A DNA stretch of 64,000 bases, taken from the NCBI GenBank assembly GCA_958009085.1, contig OY253679.1, positions 558,001 through 622,000 on the forward strand. Reading direction: 5' to 3'. This DNA is from Protoeuglena noctilucae (taxonomy: Eukaryota). How positions within the stretch are numbered: position 1 is the stretch's first letter; each line of letters starts with the position of its first letter. This document shows, one piece after another, positions 3,481 through 62,276 of the stretch. Under the pieces are notes generated by a model. That model searched no databases and was not told the DNA's origin. It saw only the letters and a list, made by a program, of their open reading frames with translations. A program made the translations under genes and the position numbers.

Positions 3481-5696
3481 ATGATCAGCGCAGTGGCGCC
3501 CGCGACCACCAGGTGACCGCACCGGGCGCCAGGGCAGGCGAGGGGGGATTCCAGCGCCTCTTCAGAGGTACAGTGGTCCCACGCGGCCACGGGGAAGGCG
3601 TTGGCGTGCCTCACCGCCAGATCCCGACGCGTTTGCGGTGCCTGCCTATCCGCAAGCGGCCTTTGCGCGCGGCCGTCGCGGGGACGCGCGAGAGGTGCCT
3701 CGCGCGAGCCAGCTGACGATCATCGGCGGGGCCGTTGCTGCGGTACCCCTCGGCAGCCCGGCGGGCCCGCTGGCCGCGCTCGGCCTTCCCCCCCGCCCCC
3801 TCGCGGGCGATCGCGGCGCGCCGGCCGTCGTGCGTCGCGATGGGTTGGGAAGGAATGCCGTTGCAGATCGGGGATGCCCACGAAAGGCGCTGAGGGCTCG
3901 GCAGGCGGGCCCCTCCTCGCGGCCGAAGCAGCGGGCGCAGTTCGCCCGGGGAACCGGGGTGTTTTCCGCCTCGCCCGCGTCGCATTTTCGTATAGGCGAT
4001 GGAAACCCTGCCCATCGCGCCCCTTCGCCGCAGGTGTGGGTCGTTCCAGTCGGCCAAGGCCTCGTTCCAGGTGACCCCCGCTTGGCCGCGTCGACGCGCC
4101 TGGCGCGGGTTGGAGGCCACCCGGCTCGCCGTGGACTCCGTCTCCATGCTCTGGGGGCACGTGCGCTCCCCTTGCGCCTGCGGCAACGCCCGGGGGGCAG
4201 GATGTCGCGAGCTGCGACGGGGGACACTCGGGGGGCATCCAGCCTCGACCCACCCTCGCGCCCCGCCCTCCGGCCGCAGGCTCCTCGTGCCGTGCGCGCG
4301 GGCCGCGTGCAGACTGTCGTGCGCGCCGGCAATGAGACGGTGGTGATCGGCCTGGCCGCCGACTCCGGGTGCGGCAAGTCGACCTTCATGCGCCGCATGA
4401 CGACGGTGTTCGGCGGGGACCCGAAGCCGCCCAAGGGTGGCAACCCCGACTCCAACACGCTCATCTCGGAGATGGCGACGGTCATCTGCCTGGACGACTA
4501 CCACTGCCTCGACCGCAACGGCCGCAAGAAGGAGAAGGTCACGGCGCTGGACGAGAAGGCGCAGAACTTCGACCTGATGTACGAGCAGGTCAAGGCGCTC
4601 AAGGAGGGCAAGACGGTCATGAAGCCCATCTACAACCACGTGACGGGCCTCCTCGACCCCGCGGAGGAGATTAAGGCCCCCCGCGTCCTCGTGATCGAGG
4701 GCCTCCACCCCTTCTACGACGAGCGCGTGCGTGACCTCCTCGACTTCAAGATCTATCTGGACATCTCCGACGAGATCAAGTTCGCCTGGAAGATCCAGCG
4801 CGACATGGCGGAGCGTGGCCACTCCCTCGAGTCCATCAAGGCCTCCATCGAGGCCCGCAAGCCCGACTTCGACAAGTTCGTCGACCCCCAGAAGCAGGTC
4901 GCGGACGTCGTCATCCAGGCGAGGGGGCGGTCCCTTGGGTCACGCCGCGCGTGGGGGCGGTCTGGGCGCAGCTCGCCGCGCTGGCCTGTGGCCCCCGCCA
5001 AACCTTGCGTCACGCGCCGCGCCCGCGCAGGTGCTGCCGACGCAACTCATCCCCGACGAGAAGGAGGGCAAGGTGCTCCGGGTCCGCATGATCCAGACTG
5101 AGTCGAGCGAGGTCTTCGACCCCGTCTACCTCTTCGACGAGGGCTCGACCATCTCGTGGGTGCCCTGCGGCCGCAAGCTCACGTGCTCGTACCCCGGCCT
5201 CAAGATGTACTACGGCCCCGACACGTGGTACGGCCGCGAGGTCTCGGTGCTGGAGATGGACGGCCAGTTCGACAAGCTGGAGGAGCTCATCTACGTCGAG
5301 TCCCACCTGTCCAACACCTCGGCCAAATTCTACGGGGAGGTCACGCAGCAGATGCTCAAGAACTCCCAGTTCCCGGGGTCCAACAACGGCACGGGGCTCT
5401 TCCAGGTGAGGGCCGGCGCGGGAGGGGTGCTGCGGGGTAGCTGACAGGCGCGCCGCCGGCCAAGATGTGCTTCACAACGTCGCTATACCGAGCGCCCTCG
5501 GGCCTGAGGACACGACCGGGCTGCTATGTAGCCCTTGCCTGAGCCGCTGGCGGTGCGATCCCGATCCGTCTGGAGCCAGCGCTGGGTCGCCGTGCCACCG
5601 CCAAATGTGACGTGCCCGCAGACCCTGGTGGCCCTCAAGGTGCGCGAGATCTACGAGCGCATCACCAAGAAGGAGATCTCCGCCGTGGCGGCTTAG
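3481..5696 (+). CDS. PRK: Chloroplast phosphoribulokinase, 5 exons
   Basis: Transit peptide split over exons 1-3 (MISAVAPATTRCGSFQSAKASFQAPRAVRAGRVQTVVRA); VVIGLAADSGCGKSTFMRR, VICLDDYH (both redox Cys present), DFKIYLDISDEIKFAWKIQRDMAERGH; intron 4919-5030 is GC-AG. Confidence 0.98.
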
Positions 5697-5953
5697 ACGC
5701 CCCGAGGCCGGGCCAACACCTCAGACGGCACGCACCTCAGTGCGAGGCGGGCCGCGCCCTAGACTAGAGGTCTCCGGACTGGCGGCGCCGTGCGGCAGTT
5801 TCGCGTCGCGACGCCCCCCCCTGTGAAATTCAATTCTGACACCTCCTGTCGGGCAGCCGCCGCCCGTCACCGCTCCATCGCCCGCGGAGAACTCATGATA
5901 ACGCTGCATTTTGCACGACACGGGGGGCCGGATCCTCTGGATATGTCGGTTCG

Positions 5954-10080: not shown

Positions 10081-10275
10081 GGGTGCTGGGTGGTACTGTG
10101 TGAGGTGTAGTTGCATGTTGGCATCGCTTGAAGTCTTGCACTAGATCGGCATCGTATCGCTTATCCGCCTTGTCAATCGAACCATCTACCCAGTCAGCTG
10201 CATTGCGCGACATGCTCGCTGGCGCGACCGCTCGTCGACCCCCGACACTAAGCGCTGCACACTCGTCCCGCAACA

Positions 10276-13110
10276 TCAGGCCTTGCGGGGCTTGGGGCCG
10301 ATCATGAGCTCCGGCCTCACGTACTTGTCAAAGTCGGCCTCTGCGCAGGACATGAAAGCGACGCGTTGCCATTAGCACTCGACACGAATTTTGTGTGCAT
10401 GAACATAAGCCACTTCCACAGCTCTCTGCTCACAGCCCCTCGCCCCACGCAGCCTCAGCCACCCTTCCTCGCTCACCCGTGACCTTGCCCAGCGCCACGG
10501 CCGCCTCCTTGAGGGTCGTGCCCTCCTTGTGCGCCTTCTTGGCCGCAGCCGCGGCGTTGTCGTACCCGATGTAGGGATTCAGTGCCGTCTGCAGCACAGA
10601 GCGGCACGCAAATGGTCAGCGTGACGAGCGAGGGTTAGTTGCTATGTCATGCTACCTGAAATTGCATGGCATCTCCCGTTCCACAGTCATTTGCAGCCGG
10701 CAGACGTTGTGCATGGCACTACAAGCCCCATCCCCACTCACCACAAGCATGAGGCTCTCGTTGAGGAGCTGGCTGATGCGCCTCTCGTTGGCCTTGATCC
10801 CGGTCACGCAGTTGTCGGCAAAGGACACGGACGCGTCCGCCAGGATGCGCGTCGAGTGCAGAAGGTTGGCAATCATCACCGGCTGCAACAGCGATGGGCC
10901 GGGCGACGCTCAGCTGACGCAGAGGGCCGTGAGAGTGCTGCATTACATGCACGCCAAACATGCGACACCCCCTCAGCCTTCCCATGTGTACTGCCATCCC
11001 CATGACTCGCCTTGTACACGTTGAGCTCGAAGTGCCCCTGGGACCCCCCGACGGTGATGGCCACGTGGTTGCCCATGACCTGGCAGCAGACCATGGTGAG
11101 GGCCTCGCACTGCGTCGGGTTGACCTTCCCGGGCATGATGGACGACCCCGGCTCGTTCTCCGGCAGCGTCAGCTCTCCCAGGCCGCACCGGGGCCCAGAC
11201 CCCAGCAGTCGGATGTCGTTGGCGACCTTCATGAGAGAGGCCGCCAGGGTGTTGAGCGCCCCGGACGCCTCCACGATCGCGTCGTGGGCCGCCAGAGCCT
11301 CGAACTTGTTGGGAGCTGCGGGGGGCCATGACGAAAGGCACCATCGGCCACGATACACCGCCAACTGGACCAACCCCGAACCTCGGTCATTGAGACGCAA
11401 CGTGAAATCAGCATTCATGGAATGCAGAGCATGGCTCCCCTCTGAGTGGCGCTGCGCAGAGGGCAGCGCAGTGCACGCCCCCAGCCCCCAGCTCGCGCCC
11501 CTCACCGGTGACGAAGGGCAGCCCGGTGTCCCGGGCGACCTGCTCCGCGACCTGCTCCGCGAACCCCACAGCCGTGTTGAGGCCTGTCCCCACCGCCGTG
11601 CCTCCCTGTGCCAGCATGCACAGCCTGCACGCAAGGGCGGGGACCGGTGTCACCGGGCCCACGCAGACGGCTCACCACGCCAGCGAGGGCCACGAGTCAC
11701 AGCGCCTGGATCCGTTCCACAACATATCGCAGATAGACAGCGCTTCGCTTCTCTCGCCTGGGCAGCGCCGCCTCGACCCTCTGGATGCCGTACTCAACCT
11801 GGGTCGCGTACCCCGAGAACTCCTGCCCCAGGGTGAGGGGCGTGGCGTCCTGGGTGTGCGTGCGCCCGATCTTGATGATGTGCGCGAACTCCTTGGCCTT
11901 GGCGTCCAGGCTCGCGTGCAGGTGCTTGAGGGACGGGATGAGCGCGCGGTGGATTTCGGACACGGCCGCGATGTGCATGACCGTCGGGAAGGTGTCGTTC
12001 GAGGATTGGCCCTTGTTCACGTGGTCGTTCGGGTGCACCATCTTGCTGCCCAGCTGGCCCCCGAGGAGCTCAATGGCGCTGCGACGACCAGAGACGCACG
12101 CGCATGCGTGAACTCTAGTCCATGCACAGGGAGCAGCGCTACCCTCGCGGCTGCCATCGCTCGCGATCGGCAGCTCCTCACCGGTTGGCGATGACCTCGT
12201 TCGCGTTCATGTTGGACTGAGTACCCGACCCCGTCTGCCAAACCACCAGGGGGAAGTGGCCGTCGAGCTTCCCCGCCGCCACCTCCTCCGCGGCCCTCAC
12301 GATCGCCTCGCCCGTCTTCTGCTCCATGTCCCCGTTCGCCATGTGCACCTTGGCCACGGCACCCTGCGCCCTGGGAAGCAACCCACGTCGCCCACACCCA
12401 CGCATGCGGCATCACGTACGCTGCCGATCACAGGCGACACAGCAGCGGGCACACCTTGAGGACGCCGAAAGCCCGGACGACAGGGGTGGGCATCTTGTCA
12501 CGCTCCTGGTTGATGCGGAAGTTCATCAGGGAGCGCTGCGTTTGCGCGCCCCAGTACCTGCAGGCGGAGAGGTGGCGATCCTGAGGTGCGCTGGCCCCCA
12601 GAGAGTGCGGACGGAGTTGTGCTGCATCCACATATCCCTACTGACCTGTCGGACGGCACCTCCAACGGCCCGAACGTGTCCTTTTCGGTCCGGGTCGACG
12701 CCTTGGTCGCATTCCCGCGACGTGCCATCGCGGAGGCCGCGGCGGGCACCGCTACGACCATAGATTCTGCGCCCGGAAATATGTGCGTAACCATCGTCAC
12801 TGAGCTCGCGGCGGGACGCCCACAGCGGGGGCGGCACGGGACTCGGCAAGGGCCGCAGGGCGCATCGCTGGGCGGGCGCCGGGATCATCGAGTCCAAATC
12901 CCCCAAACCCGCATCCATTGCATGGATACGCATTCATTCGACAGGCTGATAAGGTCTGCATGCTGCGGGGACCCGGCGGCTGGCGCACACGTCCCAAGTC
13001 GTGGCGGGGCCCATTGCAGCCCCGCGCGCCTCGCCTGCGCCCACATTTGGCTCCACCAGGGCCCCGCGCAGCCAGGAAAGCTTCGCAGCGTGACGAGCGA
13101 GGCGCCTCAT
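10276..13110 (-). CDS. FUM1: Mitochondrial class II fumarate hydratase, about 10 exons
   Basis: Presequence [86 protein letters not shown] signature; three GC-AG introns. Confidence 0.98.
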
Positions 13111-13439
13111 GTCCACGGAGTCGCTGCGTGAAGTAGGGGCCCCCTGCCCGCATTCTTTGGGCTGCCGGACGGCCGCGGCGACCCGACGCTCCCCTCGGTG
13201 CGATCACAGATTGGTTGCCAACGCAGACGAGCGCTGCGCCTCGGGCTCCCTGATCGATATCTCTGGCACGAGCGCGACCGACGCGGTCAGCCTGCACTAA
13301 CCGTCACAGCTTCAACCCATTCCACGCGCAGGCGGATCCATAGAAAGATTGGGCGAAGAGGCCGGTCATTAGAAGGTGCCAGGGAGGAGGAAACGCCTCG
13401 GCGCACGCATGCACCCCAGCTGGGCGCTTGCACGCTGCA

Positions 13440-14969: not shown

Positions 14970-15617
14970 GGCACTCCCCGCCGCTCGACTGGACGCCGGG
15001 GGCCACGATGCAATGCAATCACCAGTCCTGGGCCCGCCTCGGTCCCGCAGCTACCCGCACTGGCCGGTCCTGTCTCAGCAGGTCGGTGGTAACAGCTCGC
15101 AAACGCAATGGGACGTCGGCAGCTGGGCAGAGCGATGCATTCTTGCGCGCTGTTGACGGCACTCTGTGTTCAGCGGGCCAAGTCAGCTGTAAGGGCTCTA
15201 CCCTCTGGCGCGAGGCGCTGCAGCACATCTGGCTCTTGCAATTCTTCCAAGCCTTGAGGACTGACGCCGTCTTTAACAGCCACCGTCACTGCCACAGCCA
15301 CAAACGGCGCTCCCACTAGTCAACCCAGCGCACGGATTACCAAGCCACGACAGGCTAACCCTAACCCAGGCTGGGCGGAGAGGCAGAGGCAGGCGAGCGG
15401 TGAGCGCGGGTGTGGATGATGCGGTGCACATCAGGTGGATATCGTCTGCGGTATCCAAGACTCAGGGTGGGCGGGGAGGGTCCGCGCGCTGGACGGGGTG
15501 CAGCGCGTGGCGGGAGAGAGGGCTGCGCATTCTGTGCATGACCAGCGGGAGCGGTAGCGATGCAATTGCATGCTTGCATCATCAATATCTCGACAGCGAC
15601 GCGCGTCCTCGCTGCAG

Positions 15618-17065: not shown

Positions 17066-17122
17066 GGGGGGCTTTCCCTCGTTAAGGCTTCTTGCCCATT
17101 GAAAGAAAGACTTCGACAACCC

Positions 17123-19711
17123 TCACCACCACAGCCACACGCGGCGCGCGTCGACCCACCCCCGCTCGCGCATGCGCCACGCCACCGCACCGAGCAAAGC
17201 CATCACGCACACGACCGTCGCGAAGCCCGCGGGGCCCAGACCCCCGGGGCGCCCCGCCTCGCGCGCAGGGCCCCCTTTGGCCGCAGCTGCTGGCGGCGCC
17301 CCGCCCGCCCCCCGCGACGACGGCTCGTCCCCGCGCCGGCGCTCACCGTCCCGCCCCAACGCCCCTCGCGCCAGTATCTCCGGCAGCACGCGCATCAGAT
17401 CAGCCATGTCGCCCTCCTCGGCGACGACGTACACGGGCGCAGGCAGGCCGAGCTTTTGGCAGTGACTGGCAGCGGCCACCTCGGCCTGCCGGGCGCCCTG
17501 TGCCGGCCCGGGGCTGCGGTTCCCCACCACGAGCAAGCGCGGCCCCGGTCCCAGCGACGTTGCGTCGAGCGACGTCGACAGGGCTTCCAGGAATCCCGCG
17601 CGGCCCTGACGCCCCGCATCAAACACCACCAGCGCGCCATCGTAGGCAGCATCGGGGAATGGGCGGCCGGCCGTGCTGCCCACGGTTTCGAGCAGGACCG
17701 TGTGGTCGGAGCCCTGCGAGATGTATGGAGGCTATATTATCGAATGTCAAGAAAACCACGTCGCTGTGCTCGGCGGACAGTGCCCCTTTGCGACTGCCTG
17801 CCGGCGGCTGCCAGTACTGCTCACCCCGACGGTGACCCGTGCGCACGCCCGCGGCTGCTTGACCATCGGCACCGTCGTGCCCTGCCGCATGGACTGCGCC
17901 GCCACGGCTGCCATGACGCGGTGCTTGCCCGAGCCGGGGGCCCCCGCCACGGCGCACCGCAGGAGGTGGGGGACCACCCCCGGCTGCGTCCGTCGCACGG
18001 CCGCCGCGGGCTCGCCGGGGAACCCGCAGATGATGAGGGAAACCACGCAGCGGGTGGAGTCGGTGTGCATGAACACATCCCAAAGCGCGAGGAACTGCGG
18101 GGGGACGGGGTGCGGGCCGGGATGCGAGCGGGCAAGGTGACAAGAAACATGCGTCGGTCTTAATTCGAGAAAGGACTGGCAGGATGACATCAGGAGTGCC
18201 TGTCTCGCTCTTATATCAACCTGGCAGACCCCGCACCTGGTCCACGGAGATGCCCAGGGTGCACTGCGCGTCGGGGAGCATGCAGGTGGACGCCGCCTCG
18301 CCCCACCGTCCGTCCAGCCCTCCTTCGGGCTCCATCGCGCTCTCCAACTCCGCCCACGTCATCATGCCTGGCACTGACCGGGCATGCGCTTCGACGAAAG
18401 CTACCAGAAACGCCCTGGCGTCCCCTGCGACGCGGGGACGGCGGCGGCAGTCATCGCAGCGTGATGCAGGCACTCGATGTAGTGGCTGGGGCCACGGCAC
18501 GACCCCTCACCCGACAGCTCCAACGCTCGCCCTGGCCCAGCGCCCCCCACGACCGCCTCCAAGCCCCGCTCCACCCACTCGTCGTCCAATGAGAGATCAT
18601 CACGCAGGTGAAAGGCCCGAAGAAGGTTCCACGCATTCTCGAGGTCCCCCGCCTGGACCATAAGGGCAAAGAGGTATTCAAGCCCCGAACGGGTGAGACC
18701 CTCCTGCCCTGCATCGTCCCTCGCGACGCCCGCCTCGCCCTGCACGTCCCCGACGACGTCGTACAGCTCCCTTAGGGTGGCAGCGTCGAGCTCGGTCCCG
18801 AAAACCTCTCGCTGCATCGAATTGATCCGCTCCGCTCTCTGTGGGGGGGAGCGGGAGCGGCAGGCAGGCACTTTAACGAGTCTCATCTCCGCGCCTGCGC
18901 TGTGACCTGCGCTGTGATCCTGCCTGGGCACGCGGCACTCGCCATGCAGGTGGCGCCCACGCCAGCCACCCTTCGGTAGACGTACAGCAGCGCACGCTGG
19001 CAGCCCGCCGTCATGGCGCCCCCTGCCGCTGCGTCCACCAGAGGGGTTGTCGGGAAGAGGACCTCGTGCTGCGCTATCTGAAACACCAGTCCCGCGCGCC
19101 CCTGCTCGGGGTCTGTGTATGTGGCGCTGCACTCCACGAAGGAAACCACAGCGGGGTCCTGCACCACCAGCGCCCGGGCCCGCTCCGCCACCACGCGCTC
19201 GACCACGTGCTGCGCTGGGCCGGGCTGCAGCCCGAGGGCGGAACCGACTCCGAGGTCTGCTTTGCACGCTGCCACGACGATGGGCAGCCCGTGTCGCTTG
19301 AGGCCCGGCAGCCAGGAAGTCACGGCTCTGTCGAGCGCCGGGACGCCGAGGCTAAGATCGACGCACAGGACGACGGCGTCCGCATCGCGAATGGCTTCCT
19401 CCACGCTTGCGCGGCACGCCTCGGTCACGAGGACGGGGCAGCGCGTGCCGGGGAGAGCGAAGGTGTCGGGGAGCGCAGGGTAGGATGGCTCCGACGGCAC
19501 GACATCCCCCTGTTCGAGGGCACTGCGATGGAGGGGAAGGATTGTCGATCTCCCCGGCGAAGCATGCTGCGCCGCAGCGCGGCAAGGGTTCGGGAGCCCC
19601 TCGCCTGCGTATCAAGGACGTCTTGCCGCTCGCGTCATCGCCCACAACCAATATACGCGTGGGACGGCTCGCGCGGCGAGGCGACAGCCTCGGCAGCTCA
19701 AGCCCGCTCAT
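17123..19711 (-). CDS. MIRO: Divergent mitochondrial Rho GTPase (Miro-like): GTPase, EF region, GTPase, tail anchor
   Basis: RILVVGDDASGKTSLI, PIVVAACKADL, FVECSA, VFQIAQHEVLFPTTPL, GLTRSGLEYLFALM...AWNLLRAFHLRDDLSL, second P-loop GAPGSGK, C-terminal TM FATVVCVMALLGAVAW followed by basic residues. Confidence 0.8.
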
Positions 19712-20068: not shown

Positions 20069-22471
20069 ATGTCCTCTACGATGGATTGTCGGCCCTGTGT
20101 CGGCCGCAGCAGGCGAGTTGGCGCTTGGTTTCAGCGTGCCGTGCTGAACACTGCCGTGCCTCAACCGGCTGCGCTCCCCCCGTATCGATGGAGGCCTCAC
20201 AGCGCCGGCCGCCAGCTTTTGATTGTCAAAATGTACTCGCTGGGGCCGCCGCGGGCGCGCTCGGCCGCACAGCCGCAAAGCCCGCCCACCCTACATCTCG
20301 GCGAGCCGCGGGGCGCGGGGAGACGCTCATCCGCGCCCGCCCGTCTCTGCACCTGGCATATACATATCATTTTTCGCCCCCTCGCCCGTCTCTTGCCTCA
20401 CGCGCGTCATTGCCTCATTCCCTCCTCCACAGGCGCTGTCCGGGGGTCCCGGCTACCGAGACGAGGAGGGTCGTGAAGTCAATCTGCGGCTGGCTCATGG
20501 GGAAGGACACGGTGAGACTTGTTACAAGCAGGAGACTTGCCGGACACCCACGGCGCAGTCTGCCCAAGCCCAGCCCGCGTTCGCCACTCACCGCAGTGCT
20601 GCTATGCGAAGAAGTACAACCTCGGCTTCACGCGGGTCGCATCTGCGCAGCGCCTCTTCAAGTCCATCGCCCGGGTCTGCGAGGAGCACGCGGCAACGGA
20701 GGACGCGCCGCTGGCCGCGCTGCTGGCCCAGGTGGTCGCAGCCGTGCGACCCCTGGTGGCAGAGGATGGCCACGTGTCGGAAGCGGACCTGGCGGCGCTT
20801 CTGGAGGTCGGCAAGGCCGAGAAGGACATGAAGGACATCGCGACCCCCTGGGACCAGGGGTCCTGCGGCGGCGCACTGGCGCGCCTCGCCGAGCACCTGC
20901 GCGCCAGCGGGGCTGACCTTGCGGTCCGTGTACGCGGGCCCAGGGGCAAGGGCCGCAAGGTCCCCGTGCCGTCCCCGGCCCTGCCCCCCGATCGGCCCCC
21001 TGATCGCGTGCTGAGGGATCTCGGCGCCGCGTCTATCCGCTGGCTCGTCGCAGAGGTCTACCATTACAACCTCGAGCACCATCGCCAGGGGCGCGAGGCT
21101 TTCCTCTTCCGCATCGAGGCGCCCATCGACAAGGCCCCACTGCCTGCGGCGGCCGGCCTGCCGCCTGGCCGTGGAGACCCGCCCGACGGGGGCGGGGGCA
21201 TCGCACCGGGGGCGGCAGCGAGCTCGGCTGCGCACGTCGCTGTCGCCCCCGCGATCTACGCCCACGTGTGCAGCCCCCCCGCCTCGTCGGCTCCCGATGA
21301 GCGGGGCACGGCCCCTGGGACCGCCTCGGTTGGTGAGTAGCGGCGCCGGCACGCGCCTCCCCAATGCGCACCTCCCTCGCCACGGCTCGCTGACCCCCGC
21401 CACGCCCCCCTCCGCGCCTGCAGAGGTGGCCCCTGCGGGCTCCCCGGTGGTCGCGGCCCCGGGCGCAAACACCGCGCGCTTCTGCCCCCTGGGCAGCGCG
21501 ATGTCGGTGGAGTCGGCCCCCGTGGCCGGCTTCAAGCGCCCGCGGGCTTGCGCCCCTTGCCCCGACGTGGACGGGGACGAGTGGGTGATGCCCGCTGACC
21601 CGTGGCACGCCGTCTTCGACTCCACAGCAAAGCGGTGAGGCGCCGGGGGTGTGCCTTGGGTCATGCGGTGCCCCACCCAGCGTGGTGGCACGCGAGCCGA
21701 CGCGACGCCGCGCCCTCCCGCCTCGCAGGAAAAAGCCGGACACGTGGGCGGACATCCCGCCTCTGGAGCCGCGCGACCTGTCTGTCGGTGAGTTGGGTGC
21801 TGGCTGAGACGCGGCACGGCTAAACCACCAGCTGCCATCACTGTACTCACTGCAACCTCCACTGCCGCTGCCATGCAGACCTGGCCGATCTCGAGTCGCT
21901 CGGGACCAGCGGTCGACGCTGGGCGTCTCTGCCTCCAGTCATCATGCTCCCTGCCTCGCCTGTCGCTGGTCGCGCGCTGACGGCGGCGGGGGTCGCTCGC
22001 GACCCCCATCGAGCTGTCGACGTGGACCGTTCGACCTTCCATGACCACCGGGTCCGTGCCCCAGCGGCTCCCGGTACTTTTCTCCTAGAGCAATACCATG
22101 ACATCGCCCTGTGCGACCTGCTGGACGACGCGCGGTCGGCGGAGGTGGTGGAGGCAGTTGTCGCCATGTGCGACAACGCGGGCCTCGACCGCTTCGTGGG
22201 GTGCGACGCAGAGCAGCTCGTCAACATCGAGACGCTGCTGGCGCTGGCGGAGGCAGAGGCGGAGGCAGTGGACGGGCCGGCCCAGACGGGCGCGGCCTGC
22301 GCGGTCGAGGCGGGGGGGCTGTCGGGCCGCGTGACGCCCTGGGAGGGCGTCGCGCCTACGGTAGCCAACTCCCCTGCTGTAGACAATGTCGCCGCCACCG
22401 CCGCAAAGGACGACGAGCCCGGCCTTGTTGTCACCTTCCCGGGCTGGGATGCCTTCTGGGTCCTCCATTGA
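20069..22471 (+). CDS. Multi-exon hypothetical protein, no family recognised
   Basis: Coding-like, GC3-rich exons bounded by GT-AG sites (20431-20511, 20597-21332, 21424-21634, and a last exon ending TGA 22469-22471); start uncertain. Confidence 0.5.
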
Positions 22472-22928: not shown

Positions 22929-25900
22929 ATGGAGCAGGCATGGGGAGGCACATCGCTGCCGTCGACCGCTGCGTCGTGCGTGACGGGATGCCCACGAGCA
23001 GAGATTCCGACGCCTTCTGCTGCGAACGGGCCCCGTGCGCACGCGTCGTTGGGTGCGCAAGCCCGCTTTACCTGGGAGGGCTTTTTGGAATCCACTGTCC
23101 CCCGAAGCGCCCTTTGCAGGAGCGTGGGGCCACCGGGCTCACCGGAGGCGCAAGGTCCGTGGGGTCGCCTGGCCAAGAACACGTCGAGCGGGCACCCGGA
23201 CCGTTTCGGCGCGTCGACCAAGCCGTCCGACGAGGGCTCCATCAAGCCCCTCGCGACGCGCGCGTCCGGTGCGCCTTCCCGCTTCTCGTCCACGCATTTC
23301 TCGGATGGCACCCCGGTGCACGGCCCCGCGGGCGCGTGGGAGCCGACCCACAAGGCCCGGCGCCGTGCCGTCGGGAAGGACGTGCTTTTGGAGCCCCTCA
23401 GGTGCCGCCCGCCTCTGCGACAGCGCCCGCCCTGCCGGATACCCAGCTGCATCGATCCAGGCTTCCAACGCCGCGGGTCCGGGCCCCCGCATGATCCAGA
23501 ACCGCGCCCCCTTCGTGCGCTGCAGGCGGCAAATGGCGGGGCCAGTGCTGGTGGACGATTCGGGAGATGAGGCAGGGGCCGACGACGAGGGTTCGGACGC
23601 CGAGGGCGCCAGTCACGGCTCCGCGTCGGACATCCCGGACGAGCGCAAGTGGCTCGTGGCGTCCCTGACGTCGTCGTTCCTGTTCAGCGACATGCGCCAC
23701 CGGTGGCTGGTGCGGGTGGCGTCGCTCATGTCCCGCGCGGAGCTGTCCGCGGGGACGGAGATCGTGCGGCAGGGCGACGAGGTGGGCGACGCGGACTGCA
23801 TGTACGTGGTGGGCGAGGGCCTGGTGGACGTGGTCATCTTCGGGACCCTGGACGAACTCCAGCGCATCCTCGAGGGCAACCCGGAGGCGGAGCTGGTCGC
23901 GGACGGTGGGGACCCGCCGCAGTACTGCCTCCGCTTCTCCCGGGGCAAGGGGACCATCCTGGGGGACTCTGGCCATGGTGTTCATCAGTCCCCGGAGCGC
24001 GTCAATGGTCGCACGCACCGGTGAGGGGATTCCTGATACATACCGTGACAACATCTGATCGACGAATGAGATGGTTTTGTGAACACGCGTGTCATGCGAG
24101 ACGTGGGACGCAGGCCTGTCGCAGGGCCGCGTTCGCATGCCCATCGCCCACTGTGCCGCGCAGCGAGTCGACCCTGCAAGCTTCTCCCTCCCTGCAGACT
24201 GCACCCTGTGGACGCTCACCAAGAAGGACTTTCACAGGGAGGTCGCGCCCCGTGCGCCCTGGATGCGCCTCCTGCACTTTGCGCGACGGGTGCCGTTCTT
24301 CACGGGCGTGACGGACGCGGAGCTGCTGGGGATCCTCACGGGCACCTCCCAGGAGCATTACGCGGACGGGGACCTGATCATCCAGAGGCGAGTGGGGCCG
24401 GAGCTGCAGCTGTCACGCTTGGCCAGGCACTGGCGGGGCTGTGATGGACTGGCAACCACTTGCGCTGTGCTGGGGGCGGTGCGTGAGGGCTACCCGCCGC
24501 ATACGGTGCCACACGGTGTGTGACAGAGGTTACGGGGCCAGTCACGCGCGCGCTGATCTCCTCGCAGGGGCATGAGGGACGAGAAGGTGTATGTGATTCG
24601 GCACGGCATGGTGGGCGTGATGGGGGGCGACGAGGGCGGGGAGCCGCGGGAGGTCATCCGGCTCGGCAGGGGCCACGTGATCGGGGAGCGCGTGCTGATC
24701 GGCAGCAGCATGCGCACGGCGGACTGCGTGGCCCGGGGGGACGTCACGGTGCTCGTGCTGCAGAAGGCAGACATCCTGCGCGTCGAGTCGCCCATCTTCG
24801 AGTGGATGCTCGACTACGAGATCCTACTCAGGTGAACGGGACTGCCGGGATTGCTCGCTTTCTTTTATGCTGCCACGCTGTGCCTGACGCACGCCCGGGG
24901 TCAGGTAGGCGGACCTGACCTCGCCAGATCTCACCCAGCGTCATGATCCTCGCGGTCAGGGATCCGATAGGCGCTTACCAAGCATGTGGTGAACTCCCGC
25001 TTGCCTTTCCATGCCCGCAGTGTCGTGCGTCGGTCGGCGTACCTGAGTCGGTTTGACCTAGAGGGGACGCTGGACGAATTTCAAAGAGAGATTTACACGG
25101 AGGGGACGCAGGTCATGAAGGCGGGCGAAGTGCCAAGCCGCGTGTGGGTGCTGCGGACGGGGGAGGTGTCCGCAGAGGACGGGGAGGTGAGGGTGGGCGT
25201 GTGCTGGGAGTGTTGGGGAGGTGAGGGTGAGGACCTGCTAACACTTCCCACTCTTTGCCATGAACCAGCACGTTTTGCGAGCTACATTAGCTACGAGAGC
25301 GCTCTGGTCTCCGATCGCAGGGCAACTTTGTGGGCGTGGAGTACTTCGACTTGCCGTACGGCTTCGTGGTGTTTGGGGGCGGTGACGAGCCATCCCCGGT
25401 GACGGTGCGGGTGGCCACGGAGACGGCGGTGCTTCTGTCGATTCCTAACCCAGAGCTGGGGGACAGGGCGGGGGTGGGGGAGGACCTGCAGGAGGACGCG
25501 CGGCGCATCGTCGAGGAGCTGGCCAAGATACCCGCGTTCCAGGTGACGCATGACCTGATGTGGTACCAGGAGGGGTTGTGAGTGAGGCAAGCATGGCAAC
25601 GTGCTATGACTTGTCGAGCATGCTGCAGCGTGCTGTGAGCAGGTGAGCGTGACTCTTGCAAATGTAAACGCACCGGGCCACTCCTCTCTTTGCCCATGCA
25701 CCGCTGCCCAGCCACCCTCCCATGCCCAAGCGTCGCCTCTCTTGCCTTGCCCTCGCAGATGCTCCCCGAGGCGGTGCGCCGCAACCTGCAGGGCCTGAGC
25801 GCCTTCGCCAACCTGGCCTCGCTGCGCCTGGGGGAGGTGGTGTACCCCGAGGGAGCACCGATGGACGCGGCCATGACGGTGCGGTCGGGGGAAGTCGAGG

Positions 25901-39918: not shown

Positions 39919-41478
39919 CTACCGCTGCGGCAGGGGCGGGAGCACGCCGGGCTGCCCCTGAACGTGCCAGACGTAGGTGAGACCATCCCAACCAGAGCTG
40001 GCGATCAGGCCGTCCACCAGGGCACTGAAGTCGAGGCCAACCGCAAACTCGGTGTGGTGGCCCCAGCGCTGCAGCGGGGGCGTGCCAGGCTTGCCAATGT
40101 CCCACAACGTCACCGACATGTCGTAGGAGCAGGCCGCCAGGAGCCCCGCGCTGCGGAGATGGAAGGGCGGACGGCTAGTTGAGACCCCAACTATGGGTCG
40201 CAACCACAACAGGACAACAGCGGGTCCGCTCAACTGATGCGCGCGCCGCTTGCCCTGCCAGCGCATGCCACTCGCCTGAACGGCGAGAACACGAGCCTCC
40301 GGACGGCGTAGGCGTGCGCAGCGAAGACGCAGAGCGGGGACTGGGGGCGCCGGAGGTCCCACGTCCGGATGGTCTTGTCGACCGACCCCGTGGCAACGAT
40401 GTTCTCGTCGTACTTGTTCCAATCGACCGCCAGGACCTGCGGATGGGTCACTCAGCACTCGCTTGCAGTGCACAGCACCCGGGCTACAAGCCACTGGCCC
40501 CGAGCCCCATCCCGTGCTCTTCACCTCAAAGTCGTGGGGCTTGATGGTCATGCTGGAGACGGGCTGCCGCACGTCGAAGACCTTGCACGTGCAGTCCCCA
40601 GACGCCGTGATCAGAACGTCCGCCTCCGTGGGGCACCAAGCGGCCGTGTACACGCTGCGGGTGCGCATGAAACACGCAGGGGCAGTCAATCCCCTATCCT
40701 AACCCATAACTCATGCCAGATCCGCTGCATTGGCCGCGCAGACGGGGGCTGCGTCACGCACCAGTAGCTGTGCTCTCGGAAGGTCCGGATGGACACGGGG
40801 GCGTCCGGGCTCCAGACCTTGGCCGTGTCATCCCACGATGTGCTCACGAAGCAGTCGCGGCGCAGAGGGTTCCACGTCACGCTGTGGACCTCGTGCGTGT
40901 GCTCGGCGTAGCTGCGGATCGGGTTGGCCTGCGGGAGACGTGCATATGGATGTCGCTCGCGGGCCCCGGGGTGCGGACCACTTCCAGTGGCCTGCTTGCT
41001 ATCCGCAAGTGACAGCCATGCAGTGCCACCTGTGGAGGCGCGCTGATGTCCCATGCGCGGAGGGTGCCATCGCCGCTGGCTGAGACGATGATGTTCTCGT
41101 TGCTTTCGCTCCACGCGCAGTCATACAGCCCATCGAGGGTGTCGAATGCGACGACCTCCCGGATCCCCTGCGATGCGGAAGAGTCCAAAGAGGGTGTCGG
41201 GGCTCTCGACGCGTCCCCGCGTGCGCGCGGGTGCAGCCACAGCCGCGCCTCGCCTGAGGGGTCAGCTGGAGGACGTGCTGCCGCCCATTCCCGACAATCC
41301 CAAAGTTCTGAGATGTGCATACGGCGAGGAGATTCTCGCGGAAGGGACTGAACTTGACCGAGCAACCCTGCAGGAGGAGGGCCGGGACGCGCTCGCGAGC
41401 GTGCCGCCATCCGCGGGCGAGCCGGCGAAGGCATGGATCGGAGCGGTTACGAACCTGGAACTGCGTCCGGAAGGACAT
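39919..41478 (-). CDS. PEX7: Peroxisomal PTS2 receptor PEX7 (WD40), 7 exons
   Basis: SVKFSPFRENLLAVCTSQNFGIVGNGR, DGLYDCAWSESNEN, SASGDG, VLAVDWNKY, HAYAVRR, CSYDMSV, HHTEFAVGLD, SSGWD. Confidence 0.96.
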
Positions 41479-45856: not shown

Positions 45857-48597
<2,741 letters not shown>

Positions 48598-51900: not shown

Positions 51901-54900
51901 CGGGGACTGGCGGGCGGCGCGGGAGGCCCAGGTGGCAGCGCAGAGGGAGTGCATGGCACAGGTGCTGGGGTTCTGCGATCGGGCGCTCGCGGGCGGCGGC
52001 GTGGTGCTGGCGGCGTCCGTGGCGGCGGACGATCCCGAGGTGGCGGCGGGCATCGCGTCGTGCGTGGGGGCGCTGCGGGACGCGGGGGCCGCTTTGCGTC
52101 GGATGCCCGGCGACCCCCGCTGCGTGGCGCTGGCCCTGGTCGCGGACACGGCGCGCGTGTTTGCCATGGGCGCCCCGCACCTGATTGACCTGCGGGTGGG
52201 CGAGGACGTCTCTGGCATCGCGGCGCGGCTGGCGGGCAAGGGGTCTGGCAGCGGTGGCGGGGAGGGGCCGCACTGGTCGGAGGTGCTGGTCGACCTTTCT
52301 TTGGACCTCCTGTCCCGCGACGTGGCGCCCCTGCCGGGCGTGGCGCTGCGTGGGGCAGTGGAGGCGGCGGTCGGGGCATGCGCCGGGGACCTGACCTCCT
52401 CAGCCCTGGGGAGCCTGGTGGGCGTGCTGGGGCAGCCGGTGGGCGCCGAGGAGGACGGCAGCGACGGCGAGAGCGGGGAGGGCGAGTCTGGGAGCGAGGA
52501 CGGCAGCGAGGGGTCTGACGAGGGCAGCGATGCGTCAATGAGCGGAGATGAGGAGAGCGAGGGAGGGGCGGAGGGAGACGGGGGTCTCGGGGAGGCATTG
52601 GATCGCCTAAGGGAGCAGCGCGGGGCCGGGAGTGACGAGGAGGCGTCTCTCCCCGATGTGGACGACGAGGAGATGTTCAAGATGGACAAGGCGATCGGTG
52701 AGCGTGTGTGGTGGGTGTGACTATGACTGGGATGTTTAAGACGGACAATGCGATTGGTGAGTGGGATGAGGGGGTGTTACTGCACTAAGCGATGCCTGCC
52801 CACAACTCTGGCCATCGCCACCTACCCACCCATGCATGATGCCATGGGCACCCCATGCCAATAGATCTCGTCTCGCCCCATTGCAGCCGCCATGGTCAAG
52901 GACGCCCAGGACCGTCGCAAGGACGCCGTGCAGGCCCGCCGGTCCTCCCTGGCCCTCAAGTTCCGTGCCGCTGCGTTGCTCGACCTGTTCCTGGCCAAGC
53001 AGCCTGCGTCCCCGATGGTCCCCGGCATGGTCGTGCCTTGCCTGGAGGCCCTCAGGGCAGCTGCTATGCCCTCGGGGGACGCGCAGCTCGCCAAGCGCAT
53101 CCAGGTGCGGTGGGCTGAGTGGTTGCAGAGTGTGGGGTGCATGGGAAAGTGCCTTAGTGCGGTGGGCTGAGCGCATCTGATGCCCAAGCAACCGGGGTGC
53201 GTGCAAGGCATGACGGCATGATGCAGGCCTGCGAGCTCCATTCGCCCCCTTTACCGCAGGCCTTGATTGTGGAGCGCCTGTCGCGCGCCAAGGTGCAGAG
53301 CGGGGCGGGGCTGGACTTGGCCCAGGGGCAGGCGATGCTGCGGGCGTGCCTGGTGGCCGCCAGCCGCGCCCCGTCCCGGCAAGTCGCGGACATCACCGTC
53401 CCCGCCGCCGAGCGCCTCGTCAGCTACACTTTGCGGTGAGAGAGGGTCTGGATGAGGGTGCGAGAAGGAGGCGTGAGATGCGAACGGCCAAGAGTTTCGT
53501 GGGAGCGCCTGGCCGTTCCAAACAAGTGGAGCTAGACCATGGCAGTCCAGGTCAAGCACTAAGATGCGAATGGCCGGGCAATGAATTGCCTGGCCAATTG
53601 CAGCTGAGTGCTTGGCCTGGACTGCCATGGTCTAGCTCCACTTGTTTGGAACGGCCAGGCGGTCGCTCGCGCCATCCACCTGGCTCGTGATCCCGGGGCT
53701 TTCTTTCGCTTCAACACCTGTTGCAGCTGCTGTTTGCAACAGCACTACCCTCCCACACCCTCCTGCCAACAGGATCCTGACGCGCGTCCATTCGTCCGAT
53801 CCCAACGCCAAGCCGGATGTTCGCGAGGACGGGGTTGCCCTGGCCACCGAGGCACTGCGCCAGTCCGTCCAGGACTTCTTCAGCAGCAAGCGGACCGCCA
53901 TGCGCAAGTCGCTGTTGCTTAATGTGATCCGGGAGTGGGCCCCAGAGACGGGGGCCCTGCTGCTGCCGACGCTGATCAAGTTCGCATCGGAGGGCAGGCG
54001 AGAGAGCAGAAGCGCATTGTGTTGATAAGCCCTTTCCATGCACGAATCCGCTCGCGATGGGCGCTGTCGCAGCTCGCGTTGCAGGTACTTGGTACAGCTG
54101 TGTCGTTCACCCCTGCCTCCGATGCGCGTTGTCCCACCCCATCCGACCTGTGCATCCCTTCCCCTCACAGGAATGAAGTGAAGCGAGCTGAGGCTCTCGG
54201 CATGGTCGCCGAGGTGCTCTCCCGGAACCCCAAGCAGTATGGGGAGGTGAGGCATGCTGCGGGTGCTGTGGCATAGAGCACAGATGGGGCGCACGTGCCA
54301 GTGGTTGGCCTGTGCGGAGGCATCTCCGTGTGCAAGTCAATCATGACGTTGGTATCAGCCTACAGTCTCTCGTCTCTCACGCCGACCGGTGCTTAGCTGA
54401 CTTCCACTGCTCAAGCAACACACGGTGTTCAGATGACGATGATCGTTGCCTGCAGGCGGCGGCTCGGGAGGTGAAGCCCTGCCTGCCCGCGTTGGCCAAG
54501 GCGCTGGCCGCGGTCGCCAAGGGGGGATTTAAGTCGCCGCGGGTGCACGGAGACGCCCTGCAGGCAGCGGCAGATGTGGCGGCGCGCATTGCATCTGTGT
54601 GTGCCAGGCACGGGGCGGCCCTGGGCGTGGCAGAGAAGGCCGCCATCCTCGAGGCATGCCGGGAGGGAGAGGCACAGGCGAGGGCCGGGTAGAGGTGCCC
54701 TTGGGTGGCCTTGACCACAGCAGAGCAGTCCCCATCGCCGCTCTGACGTCATTAACCCGACCCGTCACAGTGCAAGCGACCCCCGGGCCACGCCACGCAG
54801 TGCTCAGTCACTGAACCTCGTTGTTTCCCACAGACCAACGTCTCTTCTCGCACCAAGACGATCCTCGCAAGGCTCACGGCGGTTCTGGAGGGCGGGGCGG

Positions 54901-55460: not shown

Positions 55461-57146
55461 ATGGCCCTCAGCTTGTCTCCGACCTTCCACGCACAGCACT
55501 TCCGCACCAACTGCTCCAACAGGCCTCTGGTTTGCCGACCGGCCTTCGCAAGCACCTTTGTACCAACCGTACGCATCAATCGCGCCTATATCTTGCGCGT
55601 GATCGGGACCCCGCGCCTCCGGCACGCGACCGTTCGGGCAGCGATGGAGGGCAAGGCGACGCCGGGCCAGACGACCCTCGGGTTCGTCGGTATCGGAATC
55701 ATGGGCTTTGCGATGTGCAAGTGAGTGGCGCAGGCCAGGAATCGGTCGCAACAACTCGCCGTAGGTTACGCACCAAGCGCACACACTCGGACATCGGCTG
55801 ATATCGGCCCCGATGGCGGTTGTCCGTCCTCGCCGCGCAGCAACCTGATCAAGGCCGGATATAAGGTGGTCGTGTACAACCGGAACGCGGAGAAGTGCGC
55901 GCCTCTCGTCAAGCTCGGCGCGGAGATGGCTTCGTCCCCGCAGCAGGTGGCTGAGAAGGCGTCCAGCACGTTCGTGATGGTCTCTGACCCTGACGCGGCG
56001 AAGGAAGTGGCTTTCGGAAAGGTGCGCCGCGGCCCTGTCGCCCGCCGGGCTGCGTAACGTGGCTCCTGCGCGGTGCGAGGCATCCACTCCGCGCCAGCTC
56101 GCCGCCCCTCCTGCCCCCGCAGATGGGCGTCCTGGCGGGTCTGTCCGCGGGCAAGGCGTACGTGGACGTGTCGACCGTCGACGCCGAGACTTCCACGGCC
56201 ATCGCCGAGGGTGCCCGGGGCAAGGGCGCAGTGTTCCTGGAGGCGCCTGTCTCTGGGTCCAAGGCCCCCGCTGAGAACGGCCAGCTCATCTTCCTCTGCG
56301 GTGGAGACCGCGCGGCGTTCGACTTCTGCGAGGCGAGTTTTGGCACAGTGGGCGAGCTTGGTGCCGTCATCAGCCAGACATTGCAGGCGGTTGTGCAGGG
56401 TGCCTGGCATGCAAGGATGCCTGAGCAATGGTGATGAATACGTGCATTGTATCAAACGAGGTGTTACCTGGCATTGGCATAGAGCTCACACGCGGAGTGC
56501 TTCCCAGGCTCTCCCCTGCAGCACCCACTGTCGGTGATGGGCAAGGCGAGTTTCTTCCTCGGAGAGGCGGGTCAGGGCGCCAAGATGAAGCTGGTGGTCA
56601 ACATGATCATGGGGAGCATGATGGCTGCCTTCTCGGAGGGGCTGGCCTTGGCCGACAAGGTGCGTGGGGGGTGGGGTGGGCTGACGGTCGACATGCATGC
56701 ACCCGCTGACGATGGGTGTAATAGACAGGGCTGGCCACGGCGGCCGACAAGACGAGGTGCATTGTCAAAGTGCACCCAAATGCGTTAACTAGACAGATGC
56801 ACCACGTAACCACGTGTCCTTAGCCCCCCACCCCATGCAGTCAGGTCTGTCCAAGGAGCAGCTGGTGGAGGTGCTGGGGCTGGGCGCCATCAACGCGCCC
56901 ATGTTCCAGATGAAGGGCCCCGCCATGTGCAAGGGCTCCTTCCCCACGGCCTTCCCCCTCAAGCACCAGCAGAAGGACCTCCGCTTGGCTCTGTCGCTGG
57001 GTGACCGACTGGAGCAGCCCCTGCCCGTTGCCTCGGCCGCCAACCAGCTGTTCGTGTCGGCGAGGGAGCGGGGCCACGGCGACGACGATTTCTCCGCGGT
57101 GCTCACGGCGGTGATGGCGCAGATGGCGGCGCAGTCGAGGCAGTGA
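55461..57146 (+). CDS. GLYR: Glyoxylate/succinic semialdehyde reductase (GLYR, beta-hydroxyacid dehydrogenase family)
   Basis: [78 protein letters not shown]. Confidence 0.95.
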
Positions 57147-60670: not shown

Positions 60671-61017
60671 CGGACGGTTTCTTCGGACTGCGGGCGTGCA
60701 CGCCGCGGTCCAGTCGGGACCCTGCCTGGGTGAGCTGCCCAGACGCCAGTGCCGACTGACTCGAGGCGTCAGCTCGGGATGGCGTCGCCGCTCGTCGCGA
60801 GAACGAGATGTAAGAACACGCCAGAAGCTTTTGGGCAAAGGCTGTTTCGCTGAGACGCGGGGATGGAGTTGTTCATTCTCCCCTGCACCTGGTAGGGCCT
60901 GCGGATCGACTACAGGCTGCATTCCGTGCGCGAGCTTCAAGGTCGCTCAAGTCCGGTCGAGTTCCAGCCCCGGCCGGGGCCCCGACGCTGCCGTCGGTGG
61001 CGCCCGTCGTGACTGTG

Positions 61018-62276
61018 ATGGCGACAAAGGAGCAGCGCATTCAGGATGCCGTGACCATCCTCAGCCAGGGCACCAAGGCCCACGTCCACACAGGCACGCC
61101 TCGCGCCCCAGCACATCGCGTGTGGGCCACCGCCGGACTGCACGTGCCGGGTCCGTGCACATCAACGCCTCATGTGCAGCGCACACGCGCCGCTCGACTC
61201 TGTTACCCGCCCCTGCGGCCGCAGAGCTCGATGAGGACGACACTCCCCTGGTCTTTATGTTCGTCGCGCCTCCCCCGAACGAGATACTGTGTCCGATATG
61301 CCTCGACATCATGAAGGACGCGGTCATCACGCCGTACGGGCACAGCTACTGCCAGAAGTGCGTCTCCAAGTACGCATCGACGGCCGGCCTGTGCCCCCTG
61401 ACCCGCAAGCCTCTGGCCGAGGACCAGCTGACGCCCAACCTCCTCGCGCGCACGATTGTGGACGAGATGGAGGTCTTCTGCCCACACGGGATCAAGCTGG
61501 GTGCGTGGCTGGTGCGGCGAGCTTTGAAACGCGGGTGGAGCCACGGGCGTCACCTCTGCGGTCTTGGTTTTGCAGGAGACAACGGTTGGGTCGAGGACCC
61601 GGACGGCTGCACGCAGAAGATCAAGTTCGGCCTGCGCAAGCCGCACCTGCTGACCTGCCTGCACGCCAATGTCGAGTGCCCCGCCGGGGGCCAGCGCTGC
61701 GGGCCCATCGCACGCATGGGTGAGTTTCTCTTCGACAAGCCCGCCGCCGCCCTCCTGCCGGATGCTCCCGGGGAGTTTGCTCCAGCAAGACGTGCCCGAG
61801 CAGCGCTGTGTCACAGCCCCATGTCGGCCCGCCGTGTCGCGTCTGCAGATGTGGATTTCCATCTGGAGGAGGAGTGCCAGTTCTCGGGGCGCAACAAGAC
61901 CGAGGAGGTGTCGGAGAACTACGTGCGGGCCAACACGACGCTGCAGCTCTTCGGCGTGTCGTTTGTCGTCCTGGCAGCCTTCCTGGTCCTCCTGTTTCAA
62001 ATGGGCGTCCTCCGAGATTCCATCAGGTGAGGTTTCTTTTAATGTCCAGACTGTAGAGCGGTTGGCTCGCATTTGGCGCTCCTGCTGGGAGCAGTCGTGG
62101 CTTGGCCTGCCATGGTCAGGCCAGGCAAGCGACACGTTGCCTCCCCGACCCCGCATCGCAGCCGCGTCATCTGGCCCATCGTCGGTCTGCTGAGCATCCC
62201 CGCCGGAGTCGTCGCCGCCGCCGTCCTGCTGGAGGGGCGCATCGTGGATGCAGAGTTCGCGGAGAAGCTCGAGTGA
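61018..62276 (+). CDS. RING/U-box-like and TRAF-type zinc-finger protein with two C-terminal TM helices (putative membrane E3 ligase)
   Basis: CPICLDIMKDAVITPYGHSYCQKC...CPLTRKPL..LTPN; HLLTC..VECP..C...HLEEEC; hydrophobic LFGVSFVVLAAFLVLLF and IWPIVGLLSIPAGVVAAAVLL. Confidence 0.8.

What the first reader, a model, noticed from the sequence alone, without database searches (positions are those of the whole stretch)
4919..61095. Unusually frequent GC-AG introns with an AG|GCGAG donor consensus
Seen: restoring the reading frames requires or strongly favours GC donors at + strand 4919 (PRK), 24388 (kinase), 32314 (ARMC8), 35348 (ACR), 38917 (NFU), 53998 and 54678 (POL5), 56333 (GLYR), 61094 (RING), and - strand 13034, 11757, 11010 (FUM1), 19604, 18942 (Miro), 28641 (uL22m), 41253, 40275 (PEX7), 46913 (LysA), 60571 (small ORF). 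That is about 19 of roughly 120-140 introns by hand count, i.e. over 10%. All but one follow an exonic AG and all but two read GCGAG, whereas GT donors are more variable (GTGCG, GTGAC, GTGGG). Known: GC-AG introns are usually around 1%. Inference: GC-biased T-to-C change at +2 is tolerated where the remaining U1 pairing is strong, or the lineage has a variant U1 snRNA or relaxed spliceosome.
Basis: partly seen in the sequence, partly recalled or inferred. Interest (0 to 1): 0.72.

Follow-up and report, generated by a model that had tools for sequence, protein, structure and literature searches.

The report
Frequent GC-AG introns in green alga
About one intron in seven in this GC-rich marine green alga starts with GC instead of GT, almost only where the rest of the splice signal is strong; this is real but already known from other GC-rich algae, and the splicing RNAs are normal.

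Summary
All 19 sites read as stated. A self-trained gene model with GA/GG decoy donors on 864 kb of the genome GC of 1663 introns (15%; decoys 53), or 13% counting only AG|GC.AG. GC is confined to donors with both exonic AG and +4A+5G: 209 GC vs 260 GT there, decoy level elsewhere. In CAG|GYGAGT it is the majority genome-wide (about 72-79%). The single U1 found, U2, U5 and U6 are canonical, so a variant U1 is not supported; no introner family was found. Best reading: GC pressure fixes T-to-C at +2 where both arms of the signal compensate. High GC-AG shares are published for Aureococcus, Pelagomonas, Micromonas pusilla, Chlorella and Emiliania, and this scan noted one in another alga. New member of a known kind. 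Open lead: the strongest donors may prefer C, implying a soft ceiling on donor strength.

The parts
4919..5030 (+). GC-AG intron in PRK (CAG|GCGAGG)
   Evidence: RNA joint in 3 of 3 RNA runs; spliced protein P0003 reads VIQ-VLP
10883..11010 (-). GC-AG intron in FUM1 (AAG|GCGAGT)
   Evidence: RNA joint CT..GC in 3 of 3 RNA runs; gap-free alignment
11625..11757 (-). GC-AG intron in FUM1 (CAG|GCGAGA)
   Evidence: gap-free alignment to 9 fumarases, nearest in-frame GT 36 nt away; model call
12767..13034 (-). probable GC-AG intron after a FUM1 presequence exon; unconfirmed
   Evidence: joins in frame without stop; not called by the model; no RNA joint shown
18839..18942 (-). GC-AG intron in Miro-like gene (ATG|GCGAGT, the non-AG exception)
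   Evidence: RNA exon piece ends at 18943 in 3 of 3 runs; model call
19523..19604 (-). GC-AG intron in Miro-like gene (CAG|GCGAGG)
   Evidence: acceptor side seen in RNA (piece ends 19522); the only in-frame GT (15 nt upstream) would cut the P-loop GKT
20113..20432 (+).
   Evidence: RNA joint in 3 of 3 runs; the only GY..AG reading of the joint
24388..24567 (+). GC-AG intron in cNMP-binding kinase (GAG|GCGAGT)
   Evidence: model call; in-frame stop if retained; splits a cNMP domain; weak GT at +24 not excluded
28451..28641 (-). GC-AG intron in uL22 gene (AAG|GCGAGC)
   Evidence: model call; downstream exon starts near position 22 of PF00237
32314..32398 (+). GC-AG intron in ARMC8-like gene (GAG|GCGAGC)
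   Evidence: model call; nearest in-frame GT 36 nt upstream
35348..35509 (+). GC-AG intron in ACR gene (CAG|GCAAGC); less certain
   Evidence: model call; length a multiple of 3 with no stop; PF24926 starts at the next exon
38917..39021 (+). GC-AG intron in NFU gene (AAG|GCGAGG); less certain
   Evidence: model call; alternative TTC|GTGAGC 18 nt upstream
40151..40275 (-). GC-AG intron in PEX7-like gene (CAG|GCGAGT)
   Evidence: model call; stop if retained; WD40 on both sides
41168..41253 (-). GC-AG intron in PEX7-like gene (CAG|GCGAGG)
   Evidence: model call; nearest in-frame GT 21 nt upstream
46734..46913 (-). GC-AG intron in LysA (AAG|GCGAGA), at a position shared with a GT intron in a distant relative
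   Evidence: PF02784 positions contiguous across the junction; L092 has AAG|GTTAGT at the same codon
53998..54170 (+). GC-AG intron in POL5-like gene (CAG|GCGAGA)
   Evidence: model call; stop at codon 9 if retained
54678..54833 (+). GC-AG intron in POL5-like gene (CAG|GCGAGG)
   Evidence: model call; stop at codon 4 if retained
56333..56521 (+). GC-AG intron in GLYR (GAG|GCGAGT)
   Evidence: model call; PF03446/PF14833 spacing fits within about one residue
60564..60571 (-). possible GC donor (CAG|GCGAGC) of a small ORF or 5' UTR intron; unconfirmed
   Evidence: sequence only; not called by the model, which does not model UTRs
61094..61224 (+). possible GC-AG intron in RING gene (CAG|GCACGC); off-consensus, less certain
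   Evidence: model call; lies before the conserved domain

Best explanation
These are ordinary U2-type introns spliced by a spliceosome with canonical snRNAs. Shown: about 13-15% of donors are GC, nearly all in AG|GCRAG. Inferred: the +2 U pairs with U1 A7; its loss is tolerated only when the exonic arm (AG; U1 and U5 loop 1) and the intronic arm (+4A+5G; U1 and U6 ACAGA) are both intact. GT donors usually need only one arm (classes AG//GU and //GURAG). In a genome with strong GC pressure (67% GC, GC3 0.86), T-to-C changes at +2 of existing introns drift to high frequency inside that two-armed class, so the GC share climbs with donor strength: about 4% (background) in weak sites, 45% in AG|GY.AG, 70-80% in the best-matching sites.
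For: Inside AG|G..AG: 260 GT, 209 GC, 5 decoys; outside: 1095 GT, 46 GC, 48 decoys. GC share rises from 0.04 to 0.60 with predicted U1 duplex strength of the site read as GT. GC donors have -2A 91%, +4A 91%, +5G 96% against 56, 63, 85% for GT. Canonical U1, U2, U5, U6. GC and GT introns share length, GC content, acceptor and branch-like motifs. The LysA GC intron sits where a distant relative has a GT intron. GC share in permissive sites rises weakly with host intron GC (p 0.024) and host GC3 (0.40 to 0.61, p 0.064). The link to genomic GC and the compensation rule are published (PMC3033335; PMC2490688; PMC9803359).
Against: In the strongest context the C share (64 of 82 in sample; 0.72-0.79 genome-wide) exceeds the intron baseline C/(C+T) of 0.59-0.64 (p 0.004), which neutral drift cannot give unless the true equilibrium is nearer the four-fold-site value of 0.82. 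No correlation between block GC content and GC-donor share over 17 blocks (rho 0.02; narrow range). Micromonas RCC299 has 64% GC but 2.7% GC-AG, so GC content alone is not enough. Only one orthologous intron was compared, and the direction of change is inferred.
Confidence: 0.62

Rival explanations
1. Soft ceiling on donor strength: over-strong U1 (or U6) pairing is mildly harmful here, so C at +2 is favoured as a detuner in the best-matching donors. It adds to, rather than replaces, the best explanation.
For: AG|GT.AG donors have +6 T 18 vs A 48, whereas AG|GC.AG have T 64 vs A 22, non-AG GT.AG 120 vs 61, and intron interiors after TGAG 105 vs 148 (p 0.012). GT donors with dG at or below -12: 24 observed vs 65 under column shuffling. 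Raw counts AGGTGAGT 20 vs AGGTGAGA 72 need no gene model.
Against: The +6 deficit is not significant in the held-out part alone (9 vs 14, p 0.4). 21 of 40 genome-wide CAGGTGAGT sites are donors, about 185-270 in the genome, so there is no hard limit. The LUC7 gene has a predicted CAG|GTAAGT donor. Anticorrelated arms are general in eukaryotes. The C share does not differ from 0.82 at four-fold sites (p 0.24).
Confidence: 0.25
2. A spliceosomal protein change (U1-C, LUC7, PRP8, SNRNP27, PRP28, or U6/U1 modification) widens tolerance at +2 in this lineage.
For: GC content alone does not predict the share across algae, and that paper suggests proteins or modifications. PRP8 differs from human and from its closest PDB chain (8xi2) at a few conserved places, such as human S1524T, I1566L, F1577M. 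+3 is G in 96% of non-AG GT.AG donors. Only one LUC7 locus was found. A narrow PRP28 motif pattern found no match.
Against: GC outside the strong context and GA/GG donors are at background. PRP8 keeps T524, R540, G654 and D1549 of the C. elegans suppressor screen. The U1-C N-terminus matches human closely. SNRNP27 is present. The PRP28 miss is uninformative: an intron or one substitution would hide it.
Confidence: 0.15
3. The GC introns are decayed copies of an introner transposon that carried a GC donor, as in Micromonas pusilla IE-A1.
For: Published precedent: 53% of IE-A1 have GC donors, and introners fade with time (PMC3879977). Mild heterogeneity between blocks (8-25%, p 0.036).
Against: 0 of 159 GC introns hit another intron as BLAST query at E 1e-4 (one was hit as subject). 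No k-mer enriched after allowing for 2003 tests, no terminal inverted repeats, same length spread. Same direct-repeat length as GT introns (3.42 vs 3.44). One GC intron is at a position shared with a distant relative.
Confidence: 0.05
4. A variant U1 snRNA with G at position 7 pairs with GC donors.
For: None found.
Against: One U1 match by covariance model (41 of about 427 candidates scored) and one by a pattern built on the 70K and U1A loops; its 5' end is AUACUUACCUG. A dedicated U1 would free GC donors from needing both arms; the opposite is seen.
Confidence: 0.02
5. The GC donors are mis-annotations (nearby GT used, or intron retained).
For: My model makes some false GC calls (31837 has a better GT 30 nt upstream); 12 of the 19 claimed sites lie outside the RNA-tested stretch.
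Against: Three GC..AG joints in RNA with no GT reading; decoys 53 of 1663 against 255 GC; at score margin above 5, 88 GC and 1 decoy remain; sevenfold genome-wide excess of CAGGCGAGT over control.
Confidence: 0.02

Closest known systems
GC-AG-rich introns of pelagophytes (Aureococcus anophagefferens, Pelagomonas calceolata)
   Same: GC-rich marine algae with a similar share: about 14-17% and 14% (10.1101/2024.10.30.620910, passages); 39.6% for Aureococcus with canonical U1 in PMC3033335 (passages and Discussion).
   Different: Stramenopiles with under one intron per gene and, in Aureococcus, introner elements; this is a green alga with about 5.5 introns per gene (1143 in 207 genes) and no introner family found.
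Micromonas pusilla CCMP1545 GC donors (introner IE-A1)
   Same: Green alga, 22% GC-AG, exonic AG, canonical U1.
   Different: There the GC donors come from a repeated element and read AG|GYGCGT (PMC3879977, passages). Here introns are unique and AG|GCGCG is rare (5 GC vs 116 GT).
Chlorella sp. (7.7% GC-AG) in Iwata and Gotoh 2011
   Same: Intron-bearing GC-rich chlorophyte with a raised share.
   Different: About half the share found here; donor context not given in the passages read.
Emiliania huxleyi GC-dominated donors
   Same: GC-AG attributed to high genomic GC; acceptor stays AG (PMC4028052, passages).
   Different: GC is the majority overall (56-65%) and GA donors occur (4%); here GC is the majority only in the best-matching context and GA is at background.
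Mammalian and plant GC-AG U2-type introns
   Same: GC donors adhere more closely to the U1-complementary consensus (PMC2490688, passages).
   Different: About 1% there (1.2% over plants, 10.1101/428318, passages), against 13-15% here.

Membership tests
U2-type GC-AG introns | GC..AG ends removed from mRNA | tested here: met
   joints 4919-5030, 10883-11010, 20113-20432 in 3 of 3 RNA runs of one study
U2-type GC-AG introns | rest of the donor closer to the U1-complementary consensus than in GT donors | tested here: met
   mean 5.7 vs 4.7 of 7 matches, p 3e-34
U2-type GC-AG introns | canonical U1 5' end, U2, U5 loop 1 and U6 ACAGAGA | tested here: met
U2-type GC-AG introns | same acceptor and branch signals as GT introns | tested here: met
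   CAG 157 of 159 vs 904 of 924; similar CTRAC/TGAC frequency
U12-type (minor) introns | RTATCCTT donor (motif recalled) | tested here: not met
   GC donors read GCGAG/GCAAG; U11 and U12 were not searched
Introner elements | many similar copies across the genome | tested here: not met
   0 of 159 GC introns hit as query among 1083 introns from 600 kb
Introner elements | terminal inverted repeats or target-site duplication, narrow length | tested here: not met
GC-rich algae with raised GC-AG share | genomic GC about 65-70% and share well above 2% | tested here: met
   window 67% GC, blocks 64-68%; 13-15% GC donors (gene-model estimate)
GC-rich algae with raised GC-AG share | share measured from mapped RNA-seq genome-wide | not testable with these tools
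   one read-laying run of 20 kb, contigs only
Relaxed-fidelity spliceosome | GA/GG donors or GC in weak contexts | tested here: not met
   outside AG|G..AG: GC 46, GG 32, GA 16 of 1189, all treated as background
Relaxed-fidelity spliceosome | loss or change of PRP28 or METTL16 | tested here: inconclusive
   PRP28 motif pattern found no match; METTL16 not searched

The most novel reading that the evidence does not exclude
In this alga the preferred base at +2 flips with donor strength: the best U1-matching donors are mostly GC because fully matched GT donors are mildly selected against. GC would then be a tuning device that keeps U1 pairing inside a window, not just tolerated decay. My ten literature searches found no report of such a flip; they cover open-access papers only.
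Probability: 0.25. Interest if true: 0.62.

Novelty: new member of a known kind. Interest (0 to 1): 0.36.

Why it matters
Practically, 157 of 300 predicted multi-exon genes in the sample carry a GC call, so GT-only gene prediction would break about half the genes; the database protein P0004 already runs into the PRK intron. Scientifically, it is an intron-rich, apparently introner-free green alga with an estimated 6,400-7,800 GC donors, a clean case for the open question posed in PMC3033335 of why some algae are so rich in GC-AG introns, and for testing whether donor strength has an upper limit.

Tried and rejected
Variant U1: rejected. Introner origin: no support. Hard ceiling: the first sample gave 0 GT vs 19 GC in CAG|GYGAGT, but 21 of 40 genome-wide GT sites proved to be donors, so I dropped it. 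CpG decay as a driver: CpG observed/expected is 0.96 overall and 0.85 in introns, so no strong decay acts against GCG. C-to-U editing at +2: no other letters seen, but contigs cannot exclude it; considered very unlikely. No transcript-derived FUM1 of this organism in the protein search. The metagenome scan with a LysA exon gave only 2 distant, AT-rich loci among 460 candidates; no close relative's genome was found. Pfam gave no hit for 11 of 27 flanking exons. One seed gene (NAT) had a frame error; final parameters came from six rounds on other contigs. Five of the 15 RNA joints were in the seed; 9 of the other 10 were recovered. Supplements of the papers were not read and may list more species.
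Full report
Setting. The window is G000:C12:558001-622000 of a 26.3-Mb, 27-contig genome, 67% GC. PRK and FUM1 relatives are green-algal; a PRK tree places it among core chlorophytes with three unnamed environmental sequences (100/100), class unresolved. Marine metatranscriptomes of one study hold the stretch.

Observation. All 19 claimed donors read GC at the stated places, with the stated exceptions. I could lay RNA on one 20-kb stretch (4750-24700). Each is in 3 of 3 RNA runs and absent from run X7, which covers the stretch in one piece. An exon piece ending at 18943 in all three supports donor 18942. The shown joints are the best supported, so 3 of 15 is not an unbiased rate. Homologues fix 11757, 46913 and 56333. 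24388, 28641, 19604, 40275 and 41253 are compatible with domain structure; 32314, 53998 and 54678 rest on frame and model; 35348, 38917, 61094, 13034 and 60571 are uncertain.

Genome-wide share. With no annotation at hand I wrote a gene model, seeded it with 19 GT introns, allowed GC, GA and GG donors at 1% each, and self-trained it on 12 blocks of 50 kb. GC rose to 195 of 1143 while GA and GG stayed at 4 and 18. On the window it recovered 14 of 15 RNA joints (9 of the 10 not in the seed; the miss is in a UTR) and 17 of 19 claimed donors, plus three doubtful GC calls. A stricter version that scores all donors with the GT matrix and gives C, A and G equal priors found 1355 GT, 255 GC, 36 GG and 17 GA in 864 kb: 15.3% raw (13.6-17.2), 13.0% (11.4-14.7) counting only AG|GC.AG. 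Four blocks not used in training gave 54 GC of 393. At score margin above 5, 88 GC, 331 of 468 tested GT and 1 decoy remain, about 12% after scaling. Without any model, CAGGCGAGT occurs 1016 times (reversed control 142) and CAGGTGAGT 347 times (control 99) in the genome.

Anatomy. GC donors need both arms of the signal. In AG|G..AG there are 260 GT, 209 GC and 5 decoys; elsewhere 1095 GT, 46 GC and 48 decoys. AG|G.GCG is 116 GT to 5 GC and non-AG G.GAG is 301 to 10. The share rises with predicted U1 duplex strength from 0.04 to 0.60. In AG|GY.AGT it is 64 of 82. For CAG|GYGAGT I sampled genome-wide sites: 21 of 40 GT sites and 16 of 20 GC sites were called donors (method recovered 79 of 80 known calls), giving a GC share of 0.72-0.79. 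GC and GT introns are alike in length, composition, acceptor and first-intron rate; GC introns are richer in phase 0, as expected after CAG/AAG codons.

Machinery. One U1 gene was found by two methods, with 5' end AUACUUACCUG. U6 ACAGAGA, the U2 branch-pairing region and U5 loop 1 are canonical. U1-C, one LUC7 locus, SNRNP27 and a full-length PRP8 are present. PRP8 keeps the four residues named in the C. elegans 5' splice-site suppressor paper (PMC9723624, passages; alignments) and has a few substitutions of unknown weight. A narrow PRP28 pattern found nothing, which proves nothing; METTL16 was not searched.

Mechanism. Shown: frequency, context rule, canonical snRNAs, no repeat family. Inferred: the U1 A7 pair with +2 is dispensable when both arms pair, and GC pressure then fixes T-to-C. 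The two one-armed GT classes are general (PMC9803359, passages) and stronger consensus in GC donors is known from mammals (PMC2490688, passages). One GC intron (LysA) lies where a distant AT-rich relative, L092, has a GT intron, which fits conversion of an old intron; it is a single case. The link to local GC is weak (p 0.024 and 0.064; none across blocks).

What does not fit. Under pure drift the C share cannot exceed the neutral C/(C+T). Intron baselines are 0.59-0.64 and four-fold sites 0.82. The strongest sites exceed the first (p 0.004) but not the second (p 0.24). Strong GT donors also lack the U1-pairing +6 T (18 T vs 48 A; interior 105 vs 148; p 0.012), though not significantly in held-out data alone (9 vs 14). 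This suggests a soft ceiling on donor strength, which I put at 0.25. A hard ceiling is excluded.

Known cases. PMC3033335 (passages and Discussion) gives 39.6% for Aureococcus, 22.2% for Micromonas pusilla, 7.7% for Chlorella sp. and 2.7% for Micromonas RCC299, with canonical U1, and calls the origin an enigma. PMC3879977 (passages) ties the M. pusilla case to introners. 10.1101/2024.10.30.620910 (passages) gives 14-17% in pelagophytes; PMC4028052 (passages) 56-65% in Emiliania; 10.1101/428318 (passages) 1.2% over plants. Passages of PMC10639083, PMC9481584, PMC3488318 and PMC3632134 gave background only. No supplement was read.

Verdict. Real, genome-wide and well above 1%, but a new member of a known kind. 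What sets it apart is an intron-rich green alga without introners, and a strict two-arm rule with GC as the majority at the strongest donors. The genome-wide number rests on my gene model, not on mapped reads.

Noticed in passing
   Followed up: partly
L088:1413 (LUC7 gene, C1): Predicted donor CAG|GTAAGT, a perfect U1 match, in the LUC7 gene; no AG|GTAAGT donor occurs among 1663 sampled introns. Could be an autoregulatory site.
   Followed up: no
L086:1872; L095:3407 and L095:9097: The U1-C gene has one predicted GC intron and PRP8 has two, so core splicing genes depend on GC donors.
   Followed up: no
864-kb sample: +3 is G in 447 of 464 non-AG GT.AG donors and A in only 13, beyond the intron baseline, although A pairs better with U1.
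   Followed up: partly
L093:1504-2244 (PRP8): Substitutions against both human and PDB chain 8xi2 in a highly conserved stretch (human S1524T, I1566L, F1577M, S1588A).
   Followed up: no
864-kb sample, intron 3' ends: Branch signal is weak (CTRAC in about 10% of last 60 nt) and the 3' tract is C-rich rather than T-rich.
   Followed up: partly
window 15538-17065 +: Long repetitive ORF with almost no RNA cover and raised depth in run X7; looks like a repeated gene family.
   Followed up: no
window 53500-53660: A long inverted repeat by eye inside a 337-nt intron of the POL5-like gene; possibly a small mobile element.
   Followed up: no
window 31807: True donor is probably TGG|GTGCGT at 31807; my model's GC call at 31837 is a false positive.
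   Followed up: yes
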